Virus record (IMG/VR): IMGVR_UViG_3300009550_000008 | Length of the DNA: 64,000 bases | Origin: a virus | Strand: one strand, 5' to 3' | Shown here: positions 16,501 to 36,602 of the stretch, piece by piece | How the letters are laid out: every line of letters begins with the position of its first letter | Position numbering within the stretch: position 1 is the stretch's first letter | Notes under the pieces: model-generated | Told to the model about the DNA's origin: nothing | What the model saw: only the letters and a program-made list of their open reading frames with translations | Databases searched by the model: none | Program-made: the position numbers and the translations under genes

Positions 16501-17875
16501 CGATGTTAGAGATGACGAATCAAATATGGTTCTAGAAGATGGTTCACATGTACTATTAGAATCATCACCTGATGTCAATGCAATTACAGAATATCTAAAA
16601 GAGGTATTGATATATCCACACTATGATGACCCAAGTGTGATCGAACCTCTAATGACTTACATGCCTACAGACTTGACGGGTTATAGTGCAAACTTAGAAC
16701 ATCAACAAGGTCATGTTAACCTTATTCTAATAAAGAGTAAGGCAGAAGCAAAAGTCAATACACCTATGAGAAATGAAATACATTCAAGACATATCAGTCA
16801 CGATGTATCAGTAGAAAACAATGGGGTCAGAAATGTTTATGTAATAAACGGTGTAAGACAAAAGACATTACAATTACAAACTGGTCATACATATTACTTT
16901 GGTCATAGTGCTTCACATCCATTTAAGTTTTCAACAACAAATAATGGTTCCCATGCAAGTGGAACAGAATATTCAACGGGTGTATCTTATCTAAACCAAT
17001 GTACAGTAATTACAGTTACAGGTTCGACACCAACAACATTATATTACTATTGTGATAACCATACACTTATGGGTGGTGCAATCAATATAACAAGTGGTGA
17101 TAATAGAGCAACCTCATTAAGTATAGACAATGTAAACAATCCATCTCATAGTCCATACGAAAGAAGAGCAGAATTATACAGACAAGCGGACTCAGGTATT
17201 GTTATACCTTCATATCATCCTTTTGATGAAGAAGCAATCGTTTTCGAAGATGGATTCAAGATCATTATCGATAATGAAACACATTTCATTAGAGAAGAGT
17301 ATGAACCAATATATGAAAATTCATTCTTTATGAATGAAGCAGGTAGTGGTATGGGTGCAAGGTTTGTAACAGAGGATGGAGATACTCTTTCTTTAGAGGA
17401 TGGTTCATATGTTGCACAGAATACCGAATACCTTGGTACTGAGAGAGTACAAAACAATGCAAACTTTCAGATTCTTGCAGAGGATGGTGATAGGCTAACA
17501 CTTGAGGATGGTGGAAGCATTGTAGACGAGAGAACTCAGGGTAATACTTTAAGTTCATATGTTCCATTTGGAAATAAGATTGGTGACCTAAATAAAATAG
17601 TAAACCAAAACACTTATGACATTGCATATTACTTATTAGACGAGAGTATTGCAAATGATAGTGATGAAGATAGAATAGTGTTAGAAGACGGACACGGTTC
17701 TTTATTATTAGAGTCATCAAAAAACAGAACATTAAGTTTTGAAGATATGGATGCGTTCCTACCTAACTTTAGAATTAAGGACTTTGATGAGAAATTTAAC
17801 AAGAGGACTAATATAACTTGGAACGCAGTTATAAAATCCTCAAATATTACGAATTCAACATTGAGTTCTTTATAA
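13586..17875 (+). CDS. gp7: Baseplate wedge initiator gp7-like (1429 aa) with LEDG repeats and a cupredoxin-like insert
   Basis: LPDFV...F..FLKAYYEFLE, LYQKKGT..S..FL.RLLYG, IHDGLFYQ.HSY.IK, LVHPSG; between gp6 and gp8. Confidence 0.8.
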   Translation: MSKNALNVDRISDRISSLLPDFVQDEAPVFEQFLKAYYEFLEAEVLTLESLGDSDPFQLEDGQGNILAETATSGASPDAETSKLLNEKYDTQNLTVDPFKVGDYIVGKKTKTVAKINIINGTTFYTETIHGTGFDKGETVETRQGNNEAKVKSFKQNTVLASNQLLDYSDIDNTTEEFLDYFQKDFIPSLDLDDTKDARLTIKNISDLYQKKGTKESVEFLLRLLYGQDAEIRYLIDETIQISESGHNHQRRIAVVMDDLNTIPSATDKVVQYGADGISILAESIVENVYIINTERAEYSIEVTDNHFGTFEDEYPCTFVDRDGVTKVTGRAKGILSGLDNTRSSIYVAQEDGDTLLLESPQISGNITTANGTKSLIGASSKFLSELKVGDTIKYKVSTTTYTSEIATITDDVTATLVANASVTAENVDYFNDSLAGGILNEHQSFGSMYSLNDPLIFTDGKAGRDVVKAKGVIDGLRRGGVEKVFIEEGGTGYNGGDIIVFDNSNADGNAAEAVIGAIEDVVIAENRTEWGQFQITATAGQTLFNGTDDNGQLILFNDNSVTVFVDGVEKTPYTDYTFKNDRVTFTSGQSAGAVIEIYTDFNNILLEDGDRIQLHTTESHIRSVTVTSTGTGYTTLPQCFPGGYIYLDPADLSGYQVNEVVTGGTSNATATVVRIETDKDRLVVKRLHTDTGQFTSTGELITGGTSGTAKTAKQIKVSSGTGAKLIPFSTEIGGVGSLNIQEQGYNFRENQVMDSTSHYKMLVTTPSASLTGNLTVTGKITGATGKVVSYNANQHVLTFTDLDGHFLDNEVVGFNNNDTFKCLSFNPFQARGQLGAEGIIQRQLVTNNSTLDESASNIHDGLFYQTHSYIIKVGESINKYRAIVKDLVHPSGHIFFGEVAVKETVNPFDEVLVEDPLTGELTLPRNTMGVETAQDGSALNRFTFVPTIVIKGVPTHHIDLENATRTNYLSLDVRDDESNMVLEDGSHVLLESSPDVNAITEYLKEVLIYPHYDDPSVIEPLMTYMPTDLTGYSANLEHQQGHVNLILIKSKAEAKVNTPMRNEIHSRHISHDVSVENNGVRNVYVINGVRQKTLQLQTGHTYYFGHSASHPFKFSTTNNGSHASGTEYSTGVSYLNQCTVITVTGSTPTTLYYYCDNHTLMGGAINITSGDNRATSLSIDNVNNPSHSPYERRAELYRQADSGIVIPSYHPFDEEAIVFEDGFKIIIDNETHFIREEYEPIYENSFFMNEAGSGMGARFVTEDGDTLSLEDGSYVAQNTEYLGTERVQNNANFQILAEDGDRLTLEDGGSIVDERTQGNTLSSYVPFGNKIGDLNKIVNQNTYDIAYYLLDESIANDSDEDRIVLEDGHGSLLLESSKNRTLSFEDMDAFLPNFRIKDFDEKFNKRTNITWNAVIKSSNITNSTLSSL

Positions 17876-17889
17876 ATAGTATATAAATA
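17871..17889 (+). promoter_or_regulatory. Two tandem T4 late promoters (TATAAATA at 17871 and 17882)
   Basis: Two perfect consensus copies upstream of gp8. Confidence 0.7.
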
Positions 17890-26090: not shown

Positions 26091-26293
26091 TGGGTATTAA
26101 GGTAGAAGGACATACACATTTGATAAGAGACGAAGAGTCTCATGCAATTATCAATACGGATGTTGAACAATATAGACTCACTATGAGACGAAGACAAGTG
26201 TTAAGAACTCAGAGAGATGAGATAAATAGTTTAAGACAAGAAGTAACAGAGATCAAAGGACTATTAAAGGAATTAATTAATAACAATGGCTAG
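26090..26293 (+). CDS. Small coiled-coil virion-associated protein
   Basis: TAATG overlap with the upstream stop; KVEGH..LIRD..S.AIINTD followed by a heptad tail. Confidence 0.7.
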   Translation: MGIKVEGHTHLIRDEESHAIINTDVEQYRLTMRRRQVLRTQRDEINSLRQEVTEIKGLLKELINNNG

Positions 26294-27506
26294 AACAGTA
26301 ACAAGAAATCAGACTTTAGAAGAGTTTAGAAGTAATTATAATGGACTTGCAGCGGATGTAGGGACACTATCAGGCCTTAGTGGTAATATTTCAAATCAAG
26401 GAAACATAGTCGATGCAATTAACGAATTAGAAGCAAAGACTTTCTATTTCGACTCGTTTACTTTTACTGCAACTGGTTCTCAGACAACTTTTAACTCATC
26501 ACACGAAAGTGATAGTAAAACTGTAAGGATTAGAACAGGTAGATACCAAGTATTTAAAAATTCTGCTCTACTTATAGAAGGTAACGATTTTAACCTTGCA
26601 TCATTAAGTAATGGTGAGTACGGTGCAATCACTTTAAACTCAGGTGCATCTGCTGGTGACATTATTACAATCTACACCTTTACAGGTTCAGTAGTTGGTA
26701 CACAAAGTGGTGTCGGTGGTGCTGGTGGTGGTCAGTTTACAGAAACAGCTCAAAACACAATTTACAATATTAACTCCAATGGTGTTATTCTAAATGGAGA
26801 TAGTACCTCACGAACAACAACTTTAGAGTCAGGATATACTTTACAATTAGCAGGTAAAACTTTTGCAGAAGATGATTTAGTTTCAGGAGTAGCTGGTAAG
26901 AAAGTACAATTCCCAATCGTATCTGATGGTACTGCACAATTTACTGGTGGAGTTGGAACAGGATTTAGTTCAATAACTTCTACTGCATTAGTAGGAAATT
27001 TAACAGGTAATGTAACTGGTAATGTCACAGGTGATGTATCAGGAAGTTCAGGAACAACAAATTCTATTAGTGCTCATAGTATAAATGCACTGAGTGATGT
27101 TACATTAAACTCTCCAGCAAATGGTCAGGTACTTGTATATAATACATCAAGTAGTAAATTTGAAAATGCAAATGCAGCTGCAACTTATACAAACGAAGAT
27201 GCACAGGATACTGTGGCTGCAATGATCGCAGCTGGAACTCACAGTAATATTACTGTTACTTACGATGACGCTGCGAATACAATGTCTTTTTCTGCAGCAG
27301 CTCAATATGCAGACTCAGATGCAAGAGGTGCTGTCTCAGGTGGAGATGGTCTTGCATACAATTCAACATCAGGGGTATTTGCTGTTAACACTTCCAACGG
27401 GATAGAAATCAATAGTGATTCAGTTGAACTAGATTATGAGATCGTATCTTCTGCACCTAGTGGTGTCGGTTCTACTGCAACTGGACACTTATGGTTTGTA
27501 GTATGA
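26286..27506 (+). CDS. Tail fibre/adaptor protein (406 aa)
   Basis: TLEEFR N-terminus, GNVTGNVTG repeats, INALSDV..NGQVLVY, C-terminal SSAPSG...GHLWFVV. Confidence 0.7.
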   Translation: MARTVTRNQTLEEFRSNYNGLAADVGTLSGLSGNISNQGNIVDAINELEAKTFYFDSFTFTATGSQTTFNSSHESDSKTVRIRTGRYQVFKNSALLIEGNDFNLASLSNGEYGAITLNSGASAGDIITIYTFTGSVVGTQSGVGGAGGGQFTETAQNTIYNINSNGVILNGDSTSRTTTLESGYTLQLAGKTFAEDDLVSGVAGKKVQFPIVSDGTAQFTGGVGTGFSSITSTALVGNLTGNVTGNVTGDVSGSSGTTNSISAHSINALSDVTLNSPANGQVLVYNTSSSKFENANAAATYTNEDAQDTVAAMIAAGTHSNITVTYDDAANTMSFSAAAQYADSDARGAVSGGDGLAYNSTSGVFAVNTSNGIEINSDSVELDYEIVSSAPSGVGSTATGHLWFVV

Positions 27507-27507
27507 T

Positions 27508-28962
27508 ATGGCTGACGAAATTTATATAAACACAGGGTCGACTTTTCAACAACCCTATCAGGGTCAAGTACCAGCAAACGCTCAACAACCAGTTATCAGG
27601 AACATTGATGGAACATATCCAGCAAATGCTCAGAGTCCGTTCACTTATCAGAACAGACAACCTTTTACATATCAAGATCAGAAAAACGCTAGACAGCCTG
27701 TAATTTACGATCATCGATCTCCGTTTACATATAATAGACAAGGTCGATCTCCATTTACATATCAACATCCAGTAATTAGAGATGGACAACAACCAAACAT
27801 ATATCAGGTACAAAGTCCGTTCACTTATAATAGAACAGGTCAATCGCCATTTACATATCAACATCAGTCACCTAGTACATATCAGTTCCAAGCAAATAAA
27901 CAACAACCGACTATTAAACAACAGTCTTACAATGATGTAAATGTAAATAGACAAACAACATATACAGTTGATGCTCGAACTCCTATACAAGAACCTCATA
28001 TTGGTAATAGACAAGTTGGTGTTCAAGGGCCGTACATAGGTGGTAACCAACAACCCCATTCCCACTACGAACCTGAATTGAATTCGTGGTTGAATTTTAG
28101 AGTTCCTCAGTCTACTCAAGCTCAAGGGCCGTATATAACACCACAAACATATGGGTTTCAAGCAAATGCAGTTAATGTGCAGACCAGTCGACAACAACCA
28201 GTAAGTTCACAGAGTCCATTTACATTTTCAGGTCAATCACATGAGACTGTATGGAACCAACAGATTGGTGAACCGATTCCTTACAGGGTTCCAGTAATCA
28301 ATCAACCAGCAAGACAGCCTGTTAGTTCACGAAGTCCATATAGACAACCTAGTATTACATTGACCAATGTTGGTAATGCAAGACAACCTTATAGACAACC
28401 CGTACAACAACCATCTATCTATCAACATATTAGACAGGTTGCTTACGATCATAGATCACCGTTTACATATCCTAGGACAGATGTGAATGCACAACAACCT
28501 AATATAAGGGATGCACAACAACCATATCCTTACATTGCAAACGCACAGGAGAGTAATGAGAGGAATGCAAGGAGTCCTTTCACTTACGATCATAGACAAC
28601 CTAGTAATATACAACAAGCATATCCTTACATTGCAAACGCACAAGAACCTAACATTAGGGATAAACAAAGTCCATTCACTTATGCACATCCAGTGAATGC
28701 ACAATCTCCATATATTGCAGATGCAAGATCACCTAGTACATATCAGGAATCTTATACTTACACCTACGATCATAGATCACCTTTCACATATCAGGTGAAT
28801 TATTCAACTACAAGACCCATCGGGCCTCTTGCAAAAGTTAAAGGTGTCTTTATAAACGATGGTGGTACAGTTAAAAAAGCACAGACTGTTCATGTGAATG
28901 ATAGTGGAACTGCAGAAAAAATACATGATGCAGTGCCTAATGCACAGTTCTTAAAAGGATAA
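27508..28962 (+). CDS. Pro/Gln/Tyr repeat fibre protein with internal mirror symmetry (484 aa)
   Basis: SPFTY, QQP, YPYIANAQ and YDHRSP repeats; N and C arms have reversed unit lengths. Confidence 0.8.
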   Translation: MADEIYINTGSTFQQPYQGQVPANAQQPVIRNIDGTYPANAQSPFTYQNRQPFTYQDQKNARQPVIYDHRSPFTYNRQGRSPFTYQHPVIRDGQQPNIYQVQSPFTYNRTGQSPFTYQHQSPSTYQFQANKQQPTIKQQSYNDVNVNRQTTYTVDARTPIQEPHIGNRQVGVQGPYIGGNQQPHSHYEPELNSWLNFRVPQSTQAQGPYITPQTYGFQANAVNVQTSRQQPVSSQSPFTFSGQSHETVWNQQIGEPIPYRVPVINQPARQPVSSRSPYRQPSITLTNVGNARQPYRQPVQQPSIYQHIRQVAYDHRSPFTYPRTDVNAQQPNIRDAQQPYPYIANAQESNERNARSPFTYDHRQPSNIQQAYPYIANAQEPNIRDKQSPFTYAHPVNAQSPYIADARSPSTYQESYTYTYDHRSPFTYQVNYSTTRPIGPLAKVKGVFINDGGTVKKAQTVHVNDSGTAEKIHDAVPNAQFLKG

Positions 28963-28970
28963 ATAGTAAT

Positions 28971-29306
28971 ATGGCAATCATAGCAAATTTATACATCGAT
29001 CAAGGAACAGACTATGCAATCACTGTAGATTGTACGGATACAGCTGGGGAGATACTAAACCTAACTGGATACACTGCAGCTGCACAAATGAGAAAAACAT
29101 ACGGTTCTTCTACAGTCAGTGCAACATTTGCTACATCTATTAATGCAAGTGCTGGACAGGTAACTTTATCACTAAACGATACTCAAACTACAGGTTTAGA
29201 GAGTGGTAGATATGTATATGACCTAAATATCACAAAGACTTCGTCATCAGAGACAACCCGAGTTGTTGAAGGACAAGCAATACTTACACCAGGCGTAACG
29301 AGGTAA
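28971..29306 (+). CDS. Conserved small virion protein (fibre adaptor-like)
   Basis: ANLYIDQG.D, NLTGYT..AQMRK.Y.S, GRYVYD, TRVVEG..TPGVTR. Confidence 0.7.
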   Translation: MAIIANLYIDQGTDYAITVDCTDTAGEILNLTGYTAAAQMRKTYGSSTVSATFATSINASAGQVTLSLNDTQTTGLESGRYVYDLNITKTSSSETTRVVEGQAILTPGVTR

Positions 29307-29530: not shown

Positions 29531-29538
29531 TATAAATA
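29531..29538 (+). promoter_or_regulatory. T4-type late promoter TATAAATA
   Basis: Perfect consensus preceding a ~130 nt leader. Confidence 0.75.
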
Positions 29539-32534: not shown

Positions 32535-32768
32535 ATGGCAGATACAAAAAATTTCAGAGTAGAGTATGGAATTAACAGTGGTTCTAGTGAGGTGATAAAT
32601 TCAAGTGGGAAAGTTGTAGCATCTGCTCTATCAGCAGTCGATTCAGACGATATAACAGAAGGTTCGTCTAATACATTTTTTACTACAACCCGTGTGAATA
32701 ACCACCTAGCAGATTCCGGCTCGGCAAAGACAATTAATAATGCTACAATAGATGGAGGAACATTCTAG
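32535..32768 (+). CDS. Small fibre linker protein ending in DGGTF
   Basis: NFRVEYGI N-terminus, DDITEGSSN.FFT, DGGTF; CATAAATA at 32484. Confidence 0.7.
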   Translation: MADTKNFRVEYGINSGSSEVINSSGKVVASALSAVDSDDITEGSSNTFFTTTRVNNHLADSGSAKTINNATIDGGTF

Positions 32769-34603
32769 TGGCTGCACAGAATTTTAAAATCAAGAACGGT
32801 TTAACGGTAGGTACTACTGAGGTAATCGATAGTTCAGGTGACTTAACAAATGCAGCTTTCGGAACTGCAGCTAAAGAAGCAATTGACGATCAAGTAAATA
32901 CTCTAATGACCGCAGGTTCGGGAATCTCATTATCATATGACGATTCAGCAGGAACATTAACAGTAACAAGAGATGCAGAAACAGGAGACATCGAAGGAGT
33001 TGTTGCTGGTACAAACTTAAGTGGTGGTGGTACATCGGGTACAGTCACATTAAATGTAGAACAAGAATTAACAAACTCAACTGCACCATTTTACCATAAG
33101 ATCGCTGTAACAGTAGTCAGTGATAGTGGTAACAAATATGCAATGGATGGAAATACATCAGGTGGTGTTGCAGTTAGATTGATGCCTAATATAGTTTATA
33201 GGTTCGATCAATCAGACAGTTCAAACGCAAACCATCCATTAAGATTTTCAGAAACCTCAGATGGAACCCACAACAGTGGTGCAGAAATATCTGATGGTTA
33301 TCTAATATACAACAAAGTCGGAACACCAGGCTCGGCGGGTGCATACACAGAAGTTGCATTTGACCAAGAAAGTAACGACACATTATACACATACTGTTCT
33401 GCTCATAGTGGTATGGGACAGACAGTCACATTAGGATATGCTGGTGACATTACAGGTGTTACTGCTGGAGACGGTCTCTCAGGTGGTGGTGCAACTGGAG
33501 CGGTATCACTTGCATTAGATTTAAGTGAACTAACAGCTGCAGTGGTAGACCCTGCGACAGATAGTATTGCAATTATCGATGCTGGAGATGGTTCATCTAA
33601 GAAAGAAGCAATCGCAGACCTTGCAACGATGCAAGCTGGAGACGGACTAAGTGCATCAAGTGGTGCATTTGCAGTAAATGTAGATGACAGTTCAATAGAA
33701 ACAAGTTCAGATTCACTACAAGTCAAAGCTGGTGGTGTTACAAATGCAATGTTAGCAGGTTCAATTGCAAACGCAAAACTTGCAAATTCAGCAATCACAA
33801 TTGCTGGAAGTTCTACTTCATTAGGTGGAACAGTTCTTGCAGACACCGATGCATTAACAGAAGGTTCTTCAAACTTATATCTAACAAACGAAAGAATTGA
33901 TGACAGAGTTGCAACTCTTATAGTTGGTGGTTCAAATATCACATCAACTTATGATGATGCAGCGGGTACATTAACACTTGCTGGTTCGGCTGCATATGCA
34001 GACTCAGATGCAAGAGGTGCTATATCGGTAACCGATTCAGGTGGAGATGGTTCACTTGCATACAATAACTCTACAGGTGTTATCACATATACAGGCCCAA
34101 GTGCATCAGAAGTAAGAGCTCATATAACTGCTGGAACTGGTATTGGAATCAGTTCAGGTGAAGTAAGTATCGGGCAAGCAGTTGCAACATCAAGTAATGT
34201 TCAATTTGCAAACTTAACACTTTCAGGTGACTTAACAGTAAACGGAACAACCACAACAGTAGCAACAACAAACTCAGTGATTTCAGATGCATTGATAGAA
34301 CTAGGAAATGGAACATCAGGTTCACCAGCAAATGATGCTGGTCTAGTTATCGAAAGAGGAAGTTCAGACAATGTATTCATTGGTTGGGACGAAAGTGCAG
34401 ATGCAATCACATTCGGTACAGGTTCATTTACAGGTGCAGATACAGGTAACTTGACAATAACACCTAGTGCAGTAAACACAGGTGCAGTGACAATTACAAA
34501 CGCAACAAATAGTGGTGGTACAGCAAGGAATGTTTATCAGTCTACATCAGCTCCGACAGGTGGAGATGGTGCAGTTGGTGATTTATGGATTTTATACTCT
34601 TAA
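32768..34603 (+). CDS. Tail fibre/adaptor protein with cupredoxin-like insert (611 aa, GTG start)
   Basis: NFKIKNGL N-terminus, HPLRFS...YCSAHSGMG, LTEGSSNLY, C-terminal TSAPTGGDGAVGDLWILYS. Confidence 0.75.
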   Translation: MAAQNFKIKNGLTVGTTEVIDSSGDLTNAAFGTAAKEAIDDQVNTLMTAGSGISLSYDDSAGTLTVTRDAETGDIEGVVAGTNLSGGGTSGTVTLNVEQELTNSTAPFYHKIAVTVVSDSGNKYAMDGNTSGGVAVRLMPNIVYRFDQSDSSNANHPLRFSETSDGTHNSGAEISDGYLIYNKVGTPGSAGAYTEVAFDQESNDTLYTYCSAHSGMGQTVTLGYAGDITGVTAGDGLSGGGATGAVSLALDLSELTAAVVDPATDSIAIIDAGDGSSKKEAIADLATMQAGDGLSASSGAFAVNVDDSSIETSSDSLQVKAGGVTNAMLAGSIANAKLANSAITIAGSSTSLGGTVLADTDALTEGSSNLYLTNERIDDRVATLIVGGSNITSTYDDAAGTLTLAGSAAYADSDARGAISVTDSGGDGSLAYNNSTGVITYTGPSASEVRAHITAGTGIGISSGEVSIGQAVATSSNVQFANLTLSGDLTVNGTTTTVATTNSVISDALIELGNGTSGSPANDAGLVIERGSSDNVFIGWDESADAITFGTGSFTGADTGNLTITPSAVNTGAVTITNATNSGGTARNVYQSTSAPTGGDGAVGDLWILYS

Positions 34604-34623: not shown

Positions 34624-35910
34624 ATGGCGTCAGGTAACCAAAAGGTTAAAACCCCTTCGGGTTGGAATGCAACTCAAGGTGCTTGGGTAAAAACAGGCAG
34701 TACAACTTGGAAGGCAGTAGATCAGATTTATATCAAGACTCCCGATGGATGGAATGATGCATCAGGACAAGAAGCAACGCAAATTCCTTACCCTTACATT
34801 GCAACTGGACAGGAACCAAACATTAGACAAACTATTGTTACATATCCTTACATTGCAAATGCTCAAGAACCAAATATAAGACAAACCATTGTTCCCTATC
34901 CTTACATTGCAAATGGTCAGGAACCTAACCAAAGATCAAGACAGATTTCTTATACCTATCAGGCACAGGCAAGACAACCAGTTGAATATCAATATGGTTC
35001 ACCGTTTACATACGATCATAGAGAACCTAATACATATTCAATAAGATCACCGTTTACATACGATCATAGGTCACCGTTCACTTATAATAGAACTGGAAGA
35101 AGTCCTTTTACTTATAATAGAACTGGTAGGACACCATTTACATATCAGGCACCAGCAAGACAACCTGCGACATATCAGGCTCCTGCTCGACAACCTTTTA
35201 TTGCAAATGCAAGACAACCGAATACATATCAAGCACCAGCAAGACAACCATTTATTGCAAGTGCAAGACAACCAGCAACATATCAAGCACCTGCGAGACA
35301 ACCGTTCATTGCATCTGCGAGACAACCTGCGACTTATCAAGCACCAGCAAGACAACCGTTCATTGCAAGTGCAAGAAACCCGTTCACTTATCAAGCAAGA
35401 ACACCAGTGTTTATACCAGGCGGTGGTGGTGGTTGCTTCAGTTCCGATATGCTTATTCTTATGGGTGATAATAGACTTATGCCTATCAGTGAAGTTCAAG
35501 CTGGAGACTTTGTATTATCATTTAACTTTGAAACTAACTTACTAGAATCTAGAGAAGTTGGTGCAATGATGGAACCAAGAGAAGATATACAACTATATAA
35601 TGTTAAACTTTCAAATGGTAACCACATTGAAATATCAGGTGGTCACCCAGTATCTACATCAAGAGGATGGAGATATATTAATGAGGATGCATGGAAAGTC
35701 GAAGTTGAAGCTGGAATTGCAGACTTCGAATGTGCAGAGGGTGAATTTGAAGTGGGTGACGAACTATTCTATTTCGGAGAACAAGAAGTGGTCGTTGAAA
35801 GTATAACTAAACAAGAAGAACTACAAACTACTTACAACATTGTATTAGTAGAAGGTAATGAAAACTATTTTGTGAATGGTGTTCTAGTTCATAACGGAGA
35901 GAAGAAGTAA
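34624..35910 (+). CDS. Repeat fibre chain A with C-terminal Hint (intein-like) autoprocessing domain
   Basis: Trp-rich N-terminal domain, 23 Pro-terminated repeats, GGGGG linker, then CF...SGGH...TYNI...NYFVNGVLVHN-GEKK. Confidence 0.88.
   Translation: MASGNQKVKTPSGWNATQGAWVKTGSTTWKAVDQIYIKTPDGWNDASGQEATQIPYPYIATGQEPNIRQTIVTYPYIANAQEPNIRQTIVPYPYIANGQEPNQRSRQISYTYQAQARQPVEYQYGSPFTYDHREPNTYSIRSPFTYDHRSPFTYNRTGRSPFTYNRTGRTPFTYQAPARQPATYQAPARQPFIANARQPNTYQAPARQPFIASARQPATYQAPARQPFIASARQPATYQAPARQPFIASARNPFTYQARTPVFIPGGGGGCFSSDMLILMGDNRLMPISEVQAGDFVLSFNFETNLLESREVGAMMEPREDIQLYNVKLSNGNHIEISGGHPVSTSRGWRYINEDAWKVEVEAGIADFECAEGEFEVGDELFYFGEQEVVVESITKQEELQTTYNIVLVEGNENYFVNGVLVHNGEKK
35167..35382 (+). 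repeat. 4 x 54-bp coding tandem repeat (ATYQAPARQP-FIASARQP)
   Basis: Visible in DNA and protein, with synonymous variation between copies. Confidence 0.9.
35434..35895 (+). other. Hint domain (Cys271-Asn424); +1 residue is Gly
   Basis: Block A Cys, block B SxxH, terminal His-Asn; no homing endonuclease insert. Confidence 0.85.
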
Positions 35911-36602
35911 TGGCTCAACAACCGTATCCAGCTAGTGCCCAACAACCGTTTACTTATAACGCGCAGAATCCATTTACATATCCTGCGAATTATCAGAATC
36001 CGTTCACTTATAACGCACAGAACCCGTTCACATACCCAGCAAACTATCAGAACCCGTTCACATACAATGCACAGAATCCGTTTACTTATCCAGCAAACTA
36101 TCAGTCACCGTTTACGCATAATGCTCAGAATCCGTTTACTTACCCAGCAAACTATCAGAGTCCATTTACATATCCAGCAAATGCACAACAACCTTATCCG
36201 TATATTGCAAATGCACAACAACCGTATCCGTATACTGCAGTAGGACAACAACCTAATATTAGGGCTTCACAACAACCTGCGATTAAAGATAGACAATCAC
36301 CGTATATTGCAGCTGCACAGGAACCAAATATTAGAGATTTACAGAGTCCGTTTACATATATGAATCAGGGTCGAGTACCTCAGACATATATTCACCAGTC
36401 TCCATTTACATATTCAAGACAAGGTGATACACAACAGTCTTATGACCATAGAAGTCCATTTACTTATCAGGTTATTGCAAATACTCAGAACAACTATGAC
36501 CATAGGTCTCCGTTCACATATGCAAGACAGGGACGAACTCCTGAACCAAGATGGGATGGTGTGGTTACACAACAGTGGCCTGCGACTCCAATTACCTCTT
36601 AA
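35910..36602 (+). CDS. Repeat fibre chain B, mirror partner of chain A (230 aa)
   Basis: TAATG overlap with chain A; 23 Pro-terminated repeats. Confidence 0.85.
   Translation: MAQQPYPASAQQPFTYNAQNPFTYPANYQNPFTYNAQNPFTYPANYQNPFTYNAQNPFTYPANYQSPFTHNAQNPFTYPANYQSPFTYPANAQQPYPYIANAQQPYPYTAVGQQPNIRASQQPAIKDRQSPYIAAAQEPNIRDLQSPFTYMNQGRVPQTYIHQSPFTYSRQGDTQQSYDHRSPFTYQVIANTQNNYDHRSPFTYARQGRTPEPRWDGVVTQQWPATPITS
35949..36164 (+). repeat. 4 x 54-bp coding tandem repeat (FTYNAQNP-FTYPANYQNP)
   Basis: Visible in DNA and protein. Confidence 0.9.

What the first reader, a model, noticed from the sequence alone, without database searches (positions are those of the whole stretch)
27508..28962. Single-chain protein palindrome using the same pairing code, possibly with a forked tip
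Seen: the N arm (res 17-122) has units 12,8,8,8,12,8,10,6,8,8,10,8 and the C arm (res 332-437) read backwards gives the same series; the next pair is 12 vs 13. Partners follow the A/B code: FTYNRQGRSP with YPYIANAQEP, VIYDHRSP with NIRDKQSP, VIRDGQQP with FTYDHRQP, FTYNRTGQSP with YPYIANAQES. The centre has two local symmetric blocks: QGPYI...HYEPELNSWLN...QGPYI and QPVSSQSP...VWNQQIGEPIP...QPVSSRSP. Inference: one chain folds into a long hairpin stalk ending in two sub-hairpins, probably the receptor-contacting tips. This is a second, independent instance of the antiparallel model.
Basis: partly seen in the sequence, partly recalled or inferred. Interest (0 to 1): 0.85.

Follow-up and report, generated by a model that had tools for sequence, protein, structure and literature searches.

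The report
Fold-back mirror-repeat phage fibre protein
A 484-residue protein of an uncultured marine T4-like phage has two long repeat arms that are length-for-length mirror images with complementary unit types. Relatives keep this match while changing it in step, so the chain most likely folds back on itself into a thin hairpin fibre of a kind I could not find described.

Summary
ORF 27508-28962 (484 aa) has Pro-punctuated units whose lengths mirror between the N and C arms. An objective test supports this: 11 Pro:Pro coincidences at x+x'=453, the best of all possible mirror constants, and none of 5000 shuffles reached the anchored count.

- **Conservation:** divergent orthologs (40-50% identity) keep the mirror with different layouts. 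Units change length or swap type in both arms together.
- **Arm length:** arm length up to the tip co-varies (143/143, 144/144, 126/126).
- **Pairing code:** pooled over 104 systems, 8:8 pairs are 93 NIR-type:xTY-type with no NIR:NIR and 2 xTY:xTY. The 10:10 pairs are 77 FTYxRxGxxP:YPYIAxxxxP with no like-with-like.
- **Split relatives:** at the same syntenic site, relatives carry two genes. One encodes head + N arm + globular domain (in one locus also a Hint domain). The other encodes C arm + tail. Their arms mirror each other.
- **Conservation profile:** both termini are the most conserved parts and the centre the least.

This supports a fold-back stalk (17-159 against 294-437) with a 134-residue tip. 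The forked tip and receptor contact remain inference, because AlphaFold2 (twice) and the complex job gave nothing usable. The oligomeric state is unknown.

The scan had already noted the two-chain form on this same window (e1-5878120). This is the one-chain form. No paper describing it was found.

The parts
27508..28962 (+). Gene for the 484-aa mirror-repeat protein (stop codon included)
   Evidence: ORF list and translation. It has 411 homologs in marine metagenomes and viromes and 146 clusters at 50% identity. No Pfam family matches.
27508..27555 (+). Head, residues 1-16 (MADEIYINTGSTFQQP), the most conserved part
   Evidence: Invariant columns M1 I5 Y6 I7 N8 G10 Q14 Q15 P16. Mean identity to distant orthologs is 0.86.
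27556..27984 (+). N arm, residues 17-159: Pro-punctuated units of 6, 8, 10 and 12 residues. Strictly regular to residue 122, irregular over 123-159.
27985..28386 (+). Tip, residues 160-293: not mirror-symmetric about 453, and the least conserved part
   Evidence: Mirror coincidences stop here. Its bounds sit at equal arm offsets in six orthologs. Mean identity to distant orthologs is 0.24.
27997..28143 (+). Tip block 1, residues 164-212: QGP + 8-mer, variable loop (184-200, contains the only HxH), 8-mer + QGP
   Evidence: Local Pro pairs are 175/208 and 183/200 (positions). The loop varies in length between orthologs. A low-confidence hairpin lies at 184-197.
28198..28338 (+). Tip block 2, residues 231-277: VSSQSP, loop, VSSRSP
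   Evidence: Local Pro pairs are 231/277 and 237/271 (positions). A low-confidence hairpin lies at 243-262.
28387..28818 (+). C arm, residues 294-437: mirror partner of the N arm
28819..28959 (+). Tail, residues 438-484 (IGPLAKVKGVFINDGG...KIHDAVPNAQFLKG), conserved
   Evidence: Invariant columns I438 A442 K443 V444 K445 N450 K457 H473 P477. It matches phrog_13729 at E 7.9e-5. AlphaFold2 gives strands at 448-474 with pLDDT about 50.
28971..29306 (+). Downstream 111-aa gene, conserved next to the fibre gene(s) in relatives. Possible assembly factor.
   Evidence: Matches phrog_1084 (8e-28) and phrog_3304 'L-shaped tail fiber protein assembly' (6e-24). A 110-aa gene sits at the same position in L001 and L002.
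34624..36602 (+). Two-gene form of the same repeat grammar in this window (428 aa with Hint end, 230 aa)
   Evidence: 26 Pro:Pro coincidences at one mirror constant, with the same unit pairs.

Best explanation
The gene encodes a thin fibre of the host-recognition cluster of a pelagimyophage-like T4-type phage.

**Topology.** The chain folds back on itself. The N arm (17-159) and the C arm (294-437) run antiparallel in the register i+j=453, each unit facing a unit of the same length. The conserved head (1-16) and tail (438-484) therefore lie together at one end. That end is presumably where the fibre attaches to the virion. The variable 134-residue centre (160-293) is the far tip, presumably the host-contacting part.

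**What sets the register.** It is set by complementary unit types:
- NIRxxQxP against xTYDHRSP;
- FTYxRxGxxP against YPYIAxxxxP;
- FTYQNRxP against YIAxxRxP.

A finer rule applies at the unit ends: F1 faces Q7/A5, while V/I/L1 faces S7/K5.

**Shown.** The mirror exists, its compensatory evolution, the pairing code, and the split-gene relatives.

**Inferred.**
- The pairing is within one chain.
- The arms are extended beta strands. If so, the stalk would be about 47 nm long (143 residues at about 0.33 nm each).
- Virion location and tip function.

**Unknown.** Whether hairpins bundle, for example three into a six-stranded needle as in T4 gp37.
For: **1. The mirror is real and non-random**.

**2. 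It is conserved with compensation.**
- In 12 of 13 orthologs of the window's clade, the best mirror constant equals head-Pro + tail-Pro, although the layouts differ. Six further IMG/VR orthologs rank it first or second.
- Unit 9 is 8/8 in the window protein but 10/10 in P0005. Unit 11 is 10/10 against 12/12. These were read from the P0005 sequence printed, segmented by my own reading as for the window protein; searches support them only indirectly.
- Unit 6 is xTY:NIR in the window protein but NIR:xTY in P0004, P0005 and P0008-12.
- Arm lengths to the tip landmarks are 143/143, 144/144 and 126/126.

**3. The pairing code holds.**
- In 11 non-redundant orthologs, 34 of 46 8:8 pairs are hetero and none are homotypic. 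The null gives a mean of 13.5 homotypic pairs and a minimum of 3 in 20000 permutations.
- In the same set, 16 of 21 10:10 pairs are A:B (p=1e-4).
- Pooled over 104 systems, the 8:8 pairs are 93 R:Y, 0 R:R and 2 Y:Y. The 10:10 pairs are 77 A:B, 0 A:A and 0 B:B.

**4. Residue covariation.** Within Y:R pairs it is strongest at Y1-R5 (Z 9.4), Y1-R7 (8.9) and Y7-R1 (5.7). These are the directly opposite and diagonal positions of an in-register antiparallel pair.

**5. Even spacing.** All blocks up to 36 residues between coincident Pro are even. Every Pro of both arms sits at an even offset for the first 12-27 Pro in the 14 orthologs of the window's clade. In the more distant orthologs the even run is shorter, 6-8 Pro in some arms.

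**6. Split relatives.** In syntenic locus L001 the single gene is replaced by two genes. Gene A encodes head + N arm + globular domain + Hint. Gene B encodes C arm + tail. Their arms mirror with 13 Pro:Pro coincidences. Of 79 loci classified (78 IMG/VR loci plus L001), 34 are split this way and 27 are single-chain. Seven distinct split pairs give 14-24 anchored coincidences. This places the non-repeat domain at the end opposite to head and tail.

**7. Conservation profile.** Head 0.86, tail 0.61, arms 0.37-0.38, tip 0.24.

**8. Genomic context.**
- A baseplate gene series and a 2234-aa giant gene lie upstream.
- I take that giant gene to be the VrlC counterpart, by size and position only.
- The nearest gp6 relatives are in Methylophilales and Pelagibacter myophages.
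- PMC7029224 places tail-fibre genes downstream of VrlC in such phages.
Against: - There is no structural support. AlphaFold2 gives pLDDT 32 with no arm contacts for the whole protein, and pLDDT 39 for the tip.
- Two database relatives carry uncompensated deletions between repeats: P0006 lacks 36 residues of the C arm, and P0121 is 164 aa. These are either tolerated variants or misassemblies.
- In a distant clade the mirror holds with 7- and 9-residue units. So the even-length rule is not universal and the arms need not be canonical beta ladders throughout.
- The most distant orthologs (P0064, P0078, P0114) show no significant Pro mirror under the simple anchored test.
- The covariation statistics are not corrected for shared ancestry.
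- Nothing shows that the protein is in the virion.
Confidence: 0.62

Rival explanations
1. The arms pair antiparallel but between chains. The N arm of one subunit lies against the C arm of another, giving a domain-swapped dimer or an open polymer rather than a hairpin.
For: Any antiparallel homo-pairing gives the same mirror of lengths and the same code. In split relatives the pairing is between two chains by necessity.
Against: A full-length antiparallel dimer needs the centre to pair with itself. The mirror stops at residues 160/293, and Pro parity breaks at different offsets in the two arms. In split relatives the non-repeat domain sits at one end only. A rod with two identical ends is an odd design for a fibre that must bind the virion at one end.
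Confidence: 0.17
2. The protein is not a virion fibre. It is a secreted or cell-surface Q/N/Y-rich fibre, for example a substrate of the phage's curli-type secretion genes. The same antiparallel grammar would serve self-assembly.
For: The composition is Q, P, Y, T and N rich. Pelagimyophages carry CsgF/CsgG with no identified curlin (PMC7029224), and an earlier scan note reports such an operon in this genome.
Against: No signal peptide is evident in the N-terminal sequence MADEIYINTG... (my reading; no predictor was run). The gene sits inside the baseplate-fibre gene series, between fibre-like genes, and next to a gene matching a 'tail fibre protein assembly' phrog. No curlin family hit was found. 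Frequent Pro argues against amyloid stacking.
Confidence: 0.08
3. There is no specific pairing. The protein is a parallel trimeric fibre or a disordered low-complexity linker, and the mirror is a by-product of repeat shuffling.
For: Structure predictors see no order. Repeats recombine readily, as the deletion variants P0006 and P0121 show.
Against: Repeat shuffling does not produce matched lengths, matched changes in both arms, absence of like-with-like pairs, or covariation at opposite positions. There is no DNA palindrome.
Confidence: 0.05

Closest known systems
Needle domain of the T4 long tail fibre tip, gp37 (Bartual et al. 2010, as summarised in PMC9659904)
   Same: Both belong to T4-type phages. 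In gp37 each chain runs out to the receptor-binding head and returns, giving a six-stranded antiparallel beta needle. The termini of that region lie proximal and the binding part distal. That is the same topology as inferred here.
   Different: - No sequence relation was found.
- gp37 has arrays of HxH iron sites. Here there is one HxH, in the tip, and none in the arms.
- The arms here are 143 residues long, Pro-punctuated, and built from discrete complementary unit types.
- The same architecture also exists as two separate chains.
- Trimer state is unknown here.
Two-gene mirror pair of this window, ORF 34624-35910 and 35910-36602 (earlier scan note e1-5878120)
   Same: It uses the same unit vocabulary, the same pairing rules and the same Pro:Pro register.
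   Different: It has two chains and no tip domain, a Hint domain at the far end, and different end modules. Its N-terminal domain shows no detectable similarity to the tail studied here.
Split head/tail relatives at the same syntenic site (L001 and 34 loci classified as split)
   Same: They have the same head, tail, arms and code, and take the place of the single gene.
   Different: The chain is interrupted at the tip. A 200-300-residue globular domain ends chain A instead of the 134-residue central tip; in L001 a Hint domain follows it.
Adenovirus/reovirus triple beta-spiral and T4-type triple beta-helix fibre shafts
   Same: These are also repetitive, Pro/Gly-punctuated beta fibres of viral attachment proteins.
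   Different: Those are parallel trimers with one repeat length and no mirror between the two halves of a chain (my own knowledge, not tested here beyond the absence of Pfam or PDB hits).

Membership tests
T4 gp37 needle/tip family | Detectable sequence or profile similarity to the gp37 C-terminal region | tested here: not met
   A profile of 20 orthologs against all PDB sequences gave no match at E<=1. No Pfam family matched at E<=0.1.
T4 gp37 needle/tip family | Repeated HxH motifs in both strands that bind iron along the axis | tested here: not met
   There is only one HxH (HSH 184-186), in tip loop 1. The arms carry single His in YDH/YQH contexts, and there is no Cys.
T4 gp37 needle/tip family | The chain folds back so that outgoing and returning strands are antiparallel | tested here: inconclusive
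   Sequence evidence is strong, but structure prediction gave no usable model.
T4 gp37 needle/tip family | Homotrimer | not testable with these tools
   No oligomer information was obtained.
Mirror-coded repeat fibres of marine T4-like phages (family seen only in this scan) | Pro-terminated units whose lengths mirror between two arms at one register | tested here: met
   11 Pro:Pro pairs at sum 453, the top of all constants. Shuffles and register slides score lower.
Mirror-coded repeat fibres of marine T4-like phages (family seen only in this scan) | Complementary unit types, never like with like | tested here: met
Mirror-coded repeat fibres of marine T4-like phages (family seen only in this scan) | The mirror is kept through compensatory change in relatives | tested here: met
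   The exceptions are P0006 and P0121.
Mirror-coded repeat fibres of marine T4-like phages (family seen only in this scan) | The arms lie on two separate chains | tested here: not met
   Here both arms are in one ORF. Split relatives exist at the same site.
Collagen-like or polyproline-II fibres | Period of three residues (G-X-Y) | tested here: not met
   Unit lengths are 6, 8, 10 and 12, and only 22 of 484 residues are Gly.
Curlin (CsgA/CsgB) repeats | Match to curlin repeat families | tested here: not met
   No Pfam hit.

The most novel reading that the evidence does not exclude
These proteins are a natural, sequence-programmed antiparallel zipper: a fibrous architecture in which two extended strands more than 140 residues long are held in register by a small alphabet of complementary units (NIR:xTY, FTYxRxG:YPYIA, with F/Q-A versus V-I-L/S-K fine tuning). 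It is usable either as one folded-back chain or as two chains. It would be a beta-strand counterpart of the coiled-coil heptad code, distinct from every solved phage fibre fold.
Probability: 0.4. Interest if true: 0.9.

Novelty: new variant of a known kind. Interest (0 to 1): 0.72.

Why it matters
Tail fibres of pelagimyophage-type phages, which infect some of the most abundant marine bacteria, could not be identified by earlier genome mining (PMC7029224). This gene family fills part of that gap. It sits in the host-recognition cluster, with conserved ends and a variable tip.

If the inferred structure holds, it would be a long fold-back fibre whose register is written in a readable pairing code. 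That would be of interest for protein design, as programmable beta zippers. It would also help in reading host-range modules from metagenomes, because the tip can then be located from sequence alone. The one-chain and two-chain forms at the same locus give a natural experiment on how such fibres assemble.

Tried and rejected
- **AlphaFold2, whole protein, 20-sequence alignment:** pLDDT 32, no arm contacts.
- **AlphaFold2, residues 123-331, 11 sequences:** pLDDT 39, no secondary structure. Neither model was fit for a fold search, so none was run.
- **Complex prediction, arm 17-134 against arm 319-437:** no verdict, score 0.00. I do not use it for or against binding.
- **PDB profile search:** nothing.
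- **Pfam:** nothing. **PHROGs:** only a weak hit to the tail.
- **tblastn against 50,697 phage records:** no match with the whole protein. With the tail alone, only hits at E about 1. So no cultured phage relative was found; BLAST's low-complexity filter may hide some.
- **ESM Atlas:** the sequence is held but has no model.
- **DNA inverted repeats as the cause of the mirror:** none of note.
- **Tail related to the N-terminal domain of ORF 34624:** no BLASTP alignment, so this idea was dropped.
- **Universal even-length rule as proof of beta structure:** weakened by the 7- and 9-residue units of a distant clade.
- **Pfam on the globular domains of seven split relatives:** only a sub-threshold AXH-like hit over the Hint-like end of the L001 protein.
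- **Literature searches for this repeat grammar or for fold-back fibres in marine phages:** nothing relevant was found.

Full report
**What is there.** ORF 27508-28962 (+) encodes 484 residues rich in Q, P, Y, T and N. It lies in a co-directional structural gene series. Baseplate genes (tube cap, gp5-like hub, gp6-, gp7- and gp8-like wedge) come first, then a 2234-aa giant protein. A 406-aa fibre-like protein, this gene, a 111-aa gene and more fibre-like genes follow. The nearest cultured relatives of the gp6-like protein are Methylophilales phage Melnitz and Pelagibacter phages Mosig and HTVC008M, at about 40% identity. In such pelagimyophages the genes downstream of the giant VrlC gene form the hypervariable host recognition cluster. 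Their tail fibres could not be identified by homology (PMC7029224). I equate the 2234-aa gene with VrlC by size and position only.

**Checking the observation.** Splitting after each Pro gives units mostly of 6, 8, 10 and 12 residues. I therefore used Pro positions alone.
- Over all possible mirror constants the best is 453, which is P16 (end of the head) plus P437 (end of ...STTRP). It gives 11 Pro:Pro pairs.
- Anchored there, 9 of 14 Pro in the first 120 residues coincide. Unit shuffles of the C arm give a mean of 1.5 and never reach 9 in 5000 trials. Sliding the register gives at most 6.
- After the 12/13 irregularity the register returns: P159 faces P294.

So the arms are 17-159 and 294-437 and the tip is 160-293. 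The DNA has direct repeats but no meaningful inverted repeats, so the mirror is a property of the protein.

**Conservation and compensation.** There are 411 homologs in marine metagenomes, but only 146 clusters at 50% identity in 1.8 billion representatives. No hit was found in cultured phage records.
- I identified twenty full-length orthologs with the same head and tail.
- In 12 of the 13 orthologs of the window's clade, down to about 40% identity, the top mirror constant is again exactly head-Pro plus tail-Pro.
- Six further orthologs from IMG/VR rank that constant first or second.
- The layouts differ, so the match has been kept through change. Unit 9 is 8/8 here but 10/10 in P0005, and unit 11 is 10/10 here but 12/12 there. 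I read these from the P0005 sequence printed, with my own segmentation.
- At unit 6 the window protein has VIYDHRSP facing NIRDKQSP. P0004, P0005 and P0008-12 have the NIR unit in the N arm and the xIYDHRSP unit in the C arm.
- Measured from the anchors to conserved tip landmarks (IQEPHIG... and ...NVGNARQP), the two arms are 143/143 in the window protein and P0003. They are 144/144 in P0004, P0005 and P0009, and 126/126 in P0007.
- A distant clade has six 7-residue units followed by two 9-residue units in the N arm. These are mirrored by two 9s followed by six 7s in the C arm, giving 11 consecutive Pro:Pro coincidences.
- The exceptions are P0006 (36 residues missing from the C arm only) and P0121 (164 aa). 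Both look like deletions between repeats and may be assembly errors. The most distant orthologs fail the simple anchored test.

**The pairing code.**

| Data set | Unit pairs | Complementary | Like with like | Null or p |
|---|---|---|---|---|
| 11 non-redundant orthologs | 46 of 8:8 | 34 NIR-type: xTY-type | 0 | null mean 13.5, minimum 3 in 20000 |
| 11 non-redundant orthologs | 21 of 10:10 | 16 FTYxRxGxxP: YPYIAxxxxP | 0 | p=1e-4 |
| 104 systems pooled | 204 distinct 8:8 | 93 R:Y, 90 Y:other (mostly FTYQNRxP with YIAxxRxP) | 0 R:R, 2 Y:Y | not computed |
| 104 systems pooled | 145 distinct 10:10 | 77 A:B | 0 A:A, 0 B:B | not computed |

Inside the Y:R class the strongest residue couplings are Y1-R5 (Z 9.4), Y1-R7 (8.9) and Y7-R1 (5.7). 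Phe at Y1 goes with Gln at R7 and Ala, Ile or Gly at R5. Val, Ile or Leu at Y1 goes with Ser or Glu at R7 and Lys or Gln at R5. With Pro facing Pro, position k faces 8-k. Y1-R7 and Y7-R1 are therefore directly opposite, and Y1-R5 is the diagonal neighbour on the same face. This is what an in-register antiparallel pair predicts. The statistics are not corrected for shared ancestry.

**Conformation.**
- In the window's clade all blocks up to 36 residues between coincident Pro are even.
- Every Pro of either arm lies at an even offset from its own anchor for the first 12-27 Pro.
- Residues sort strongly by parity. Counts are given as even:odd offset: Y 1:24, F 1:10, V 0:8, H 0:6, A 2:16, against P 26:1, T 16:3, D 9:1, I 9:2.
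- This fits two long extended strands with Pro opposite Pro at non-hydrogen-bonded positions, but it is an inference.
- The 7- and 9-residue tracts of the distant clade show that equal length, not evenness, is the general rule.
- If fully extended, 143 residues would span roughly 47 nm.

**Hairpin or swap.** Any antiparallel self-pairing gives a mirror. Three observations favour a fold-back chain.
1. The centre does not mirror at constant 453, and the two arms lose Pro parity at different offsets.
2. Relatives split the protein at the tip. In L001 the gene order is giant gene, 68-aa, 417-aa, then the fibre gene(s), then 110-, 79-, 538-, 275- and 136-aa genes. This matches the window. The single gene is replaced there by a 581-aa protein (head, N arm, globular domain, Hint-like end) and an overlapping 271-aa protein (C arm, tail). 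Their arms mirror with 13 anchored Pro:Pro coincidences and the A:B code. Of 79 loci classified (78 IMG/VR loci plus L001), 34 are split and 27 single-chain. Seven distinct split pairs give 14-24 anchored coincidences. The non-repeat domain is thus at the end opposite to head and tail.
3. The conservation profile is head 0.86, tail 0.61, arms 0.37-0.38 and tip 0.24, as identity to distant orthologs. This is the usual fibre pattern of a conserved attachment end and a variable host-binding end, provided both termini sit together.

**The forked tip.**
- Around loop 1, a QGP + 8-mer on one side and an 8-mer + QGP on the other recur in P0005 and P0009, and partly in P0004 and P0007. Loop length ranges from 11 to about 40 residues (read from sequences printed and the alignment).
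- Block 2 is replaced by other sequence types in other subclades.
- Among close orthologs block 1 is the least conserved region against P0001. Against P0002 and P0003 the linker before it is lower still.
- AlphaFold2 draws hairpins at 184-197 and 243-262 but with pLDDT of 40-50. The tip-only run gave nothing.
- A two-loop tip is plausible but not shown.

**Comparison with known systems.** The closest known thing is the gp37 needle of T4: a six-stranded antiparallel needle made by three chains that go out to the receptor-binding head and come back (PMC9659904). The topology inferred here is the same. However, there is no sequence relation and no HxH iron-site array. The arms are much longer and are built from a small alphabet of complementary units. 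The architecture also occurs as two chains. I found no paper describing this repeat grammar.

The scan had already noted the two-gene form on this same window (e1-5878120). I re-derived that match independently: 26 Pro:Pro coincidences at one constant.

**Verdict.** The hairpin reading is supported by comparative evidence but not by structure. The forked tip and receptor contact are unproven. The oligomeric state is open.

Noticed in passing
L001:4256-6816 (ENA ERZ23487539 scaffold_310), plus 34 loci classified as split (for example L039, L040, L043, L048, L050, L075, L077): At the syntenic site of the single gene, many relatives carry two genes. The first encodes head + N arm + a 200-300-residue globular domain with no Pfam match; in L001 a Hint-like end follows it. 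The second encodes C arm + tail. The split form is at least as common as the single chain (34 against 27 of 79 loci).
   Followed up: partly
P0006 (446 aa) and P0121 (164 aa), proteins: These variants have deletions between repeated units in one arm only, which breaks the mirror. They are either tolerated natural variants or metagenome misassemblies across repeats.
   Followed up: no
P0072 residues 114-173 and 329-388 (distant clade, also L021, L035, L042): Ala-rich 7-residue units (VAAARQP, IAAYQSP) and 9-residue units occur in both arms in mirror order. A second unit vocabulary therefore obeys the same mirror rule.
   Followed up: partly
window 28971-29306: A 111-aa gene matches phrog_1084 and phrog_3304 ('L-shaped tail fiber protein assembly'). 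A 110-aa gene sits directly after the fibre gene(s) in L001 and L002. It is a candidate assembly factor for the hairpin fibre.
   Followed up: no
window 27508-27555 and 28819-28959: The head (DEIYINTGST) and two stretches of the tail (KGVFINDGGT, QTVHVNDSGT) share a hydrophobic-x-hydrophobic-N-x-G-x-T pattern. The N terminus may add a third copy to a small base domain formed with the C terminus. This was read by eye only.
   Followed up: no
P0018 (502 aa): This protein has the head of the present family but ends in PRWDGVLQQQWPATPITS, the C-terminal motif of ORF 35910-36602. End modules of the two zipper families therefore recombine.
   Followed up: no
window 26286-27506 and 32768-34603: The 406-aa and 611-aa fibre-like proteins share a near-identical stretch (A..YADSDARGA.S....GDG.LAYN.STGV). 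This suggests a common joint or adaptor module. Seen by eye in the translations.
   Followed up: no
window 17871-17889 and 29531-29538: T4 late-promoter-like TATAAATA boxes flank the block from the gp8-like gene to the 72-aa gene. No box lies between them, so the fibre gene may be part of one long late transcript. The window has 12 such boxes against 6.3 expected.
   Followed up: no
window 28057-28065 (residues 184-186): The only HxH of the protein (HSH) lies in tip loop 1. In T4 gp37 such motifs bind iron, but here it is single and not conserved (YAN, QAH, NAW in close orthologs).
   Followed up: partly
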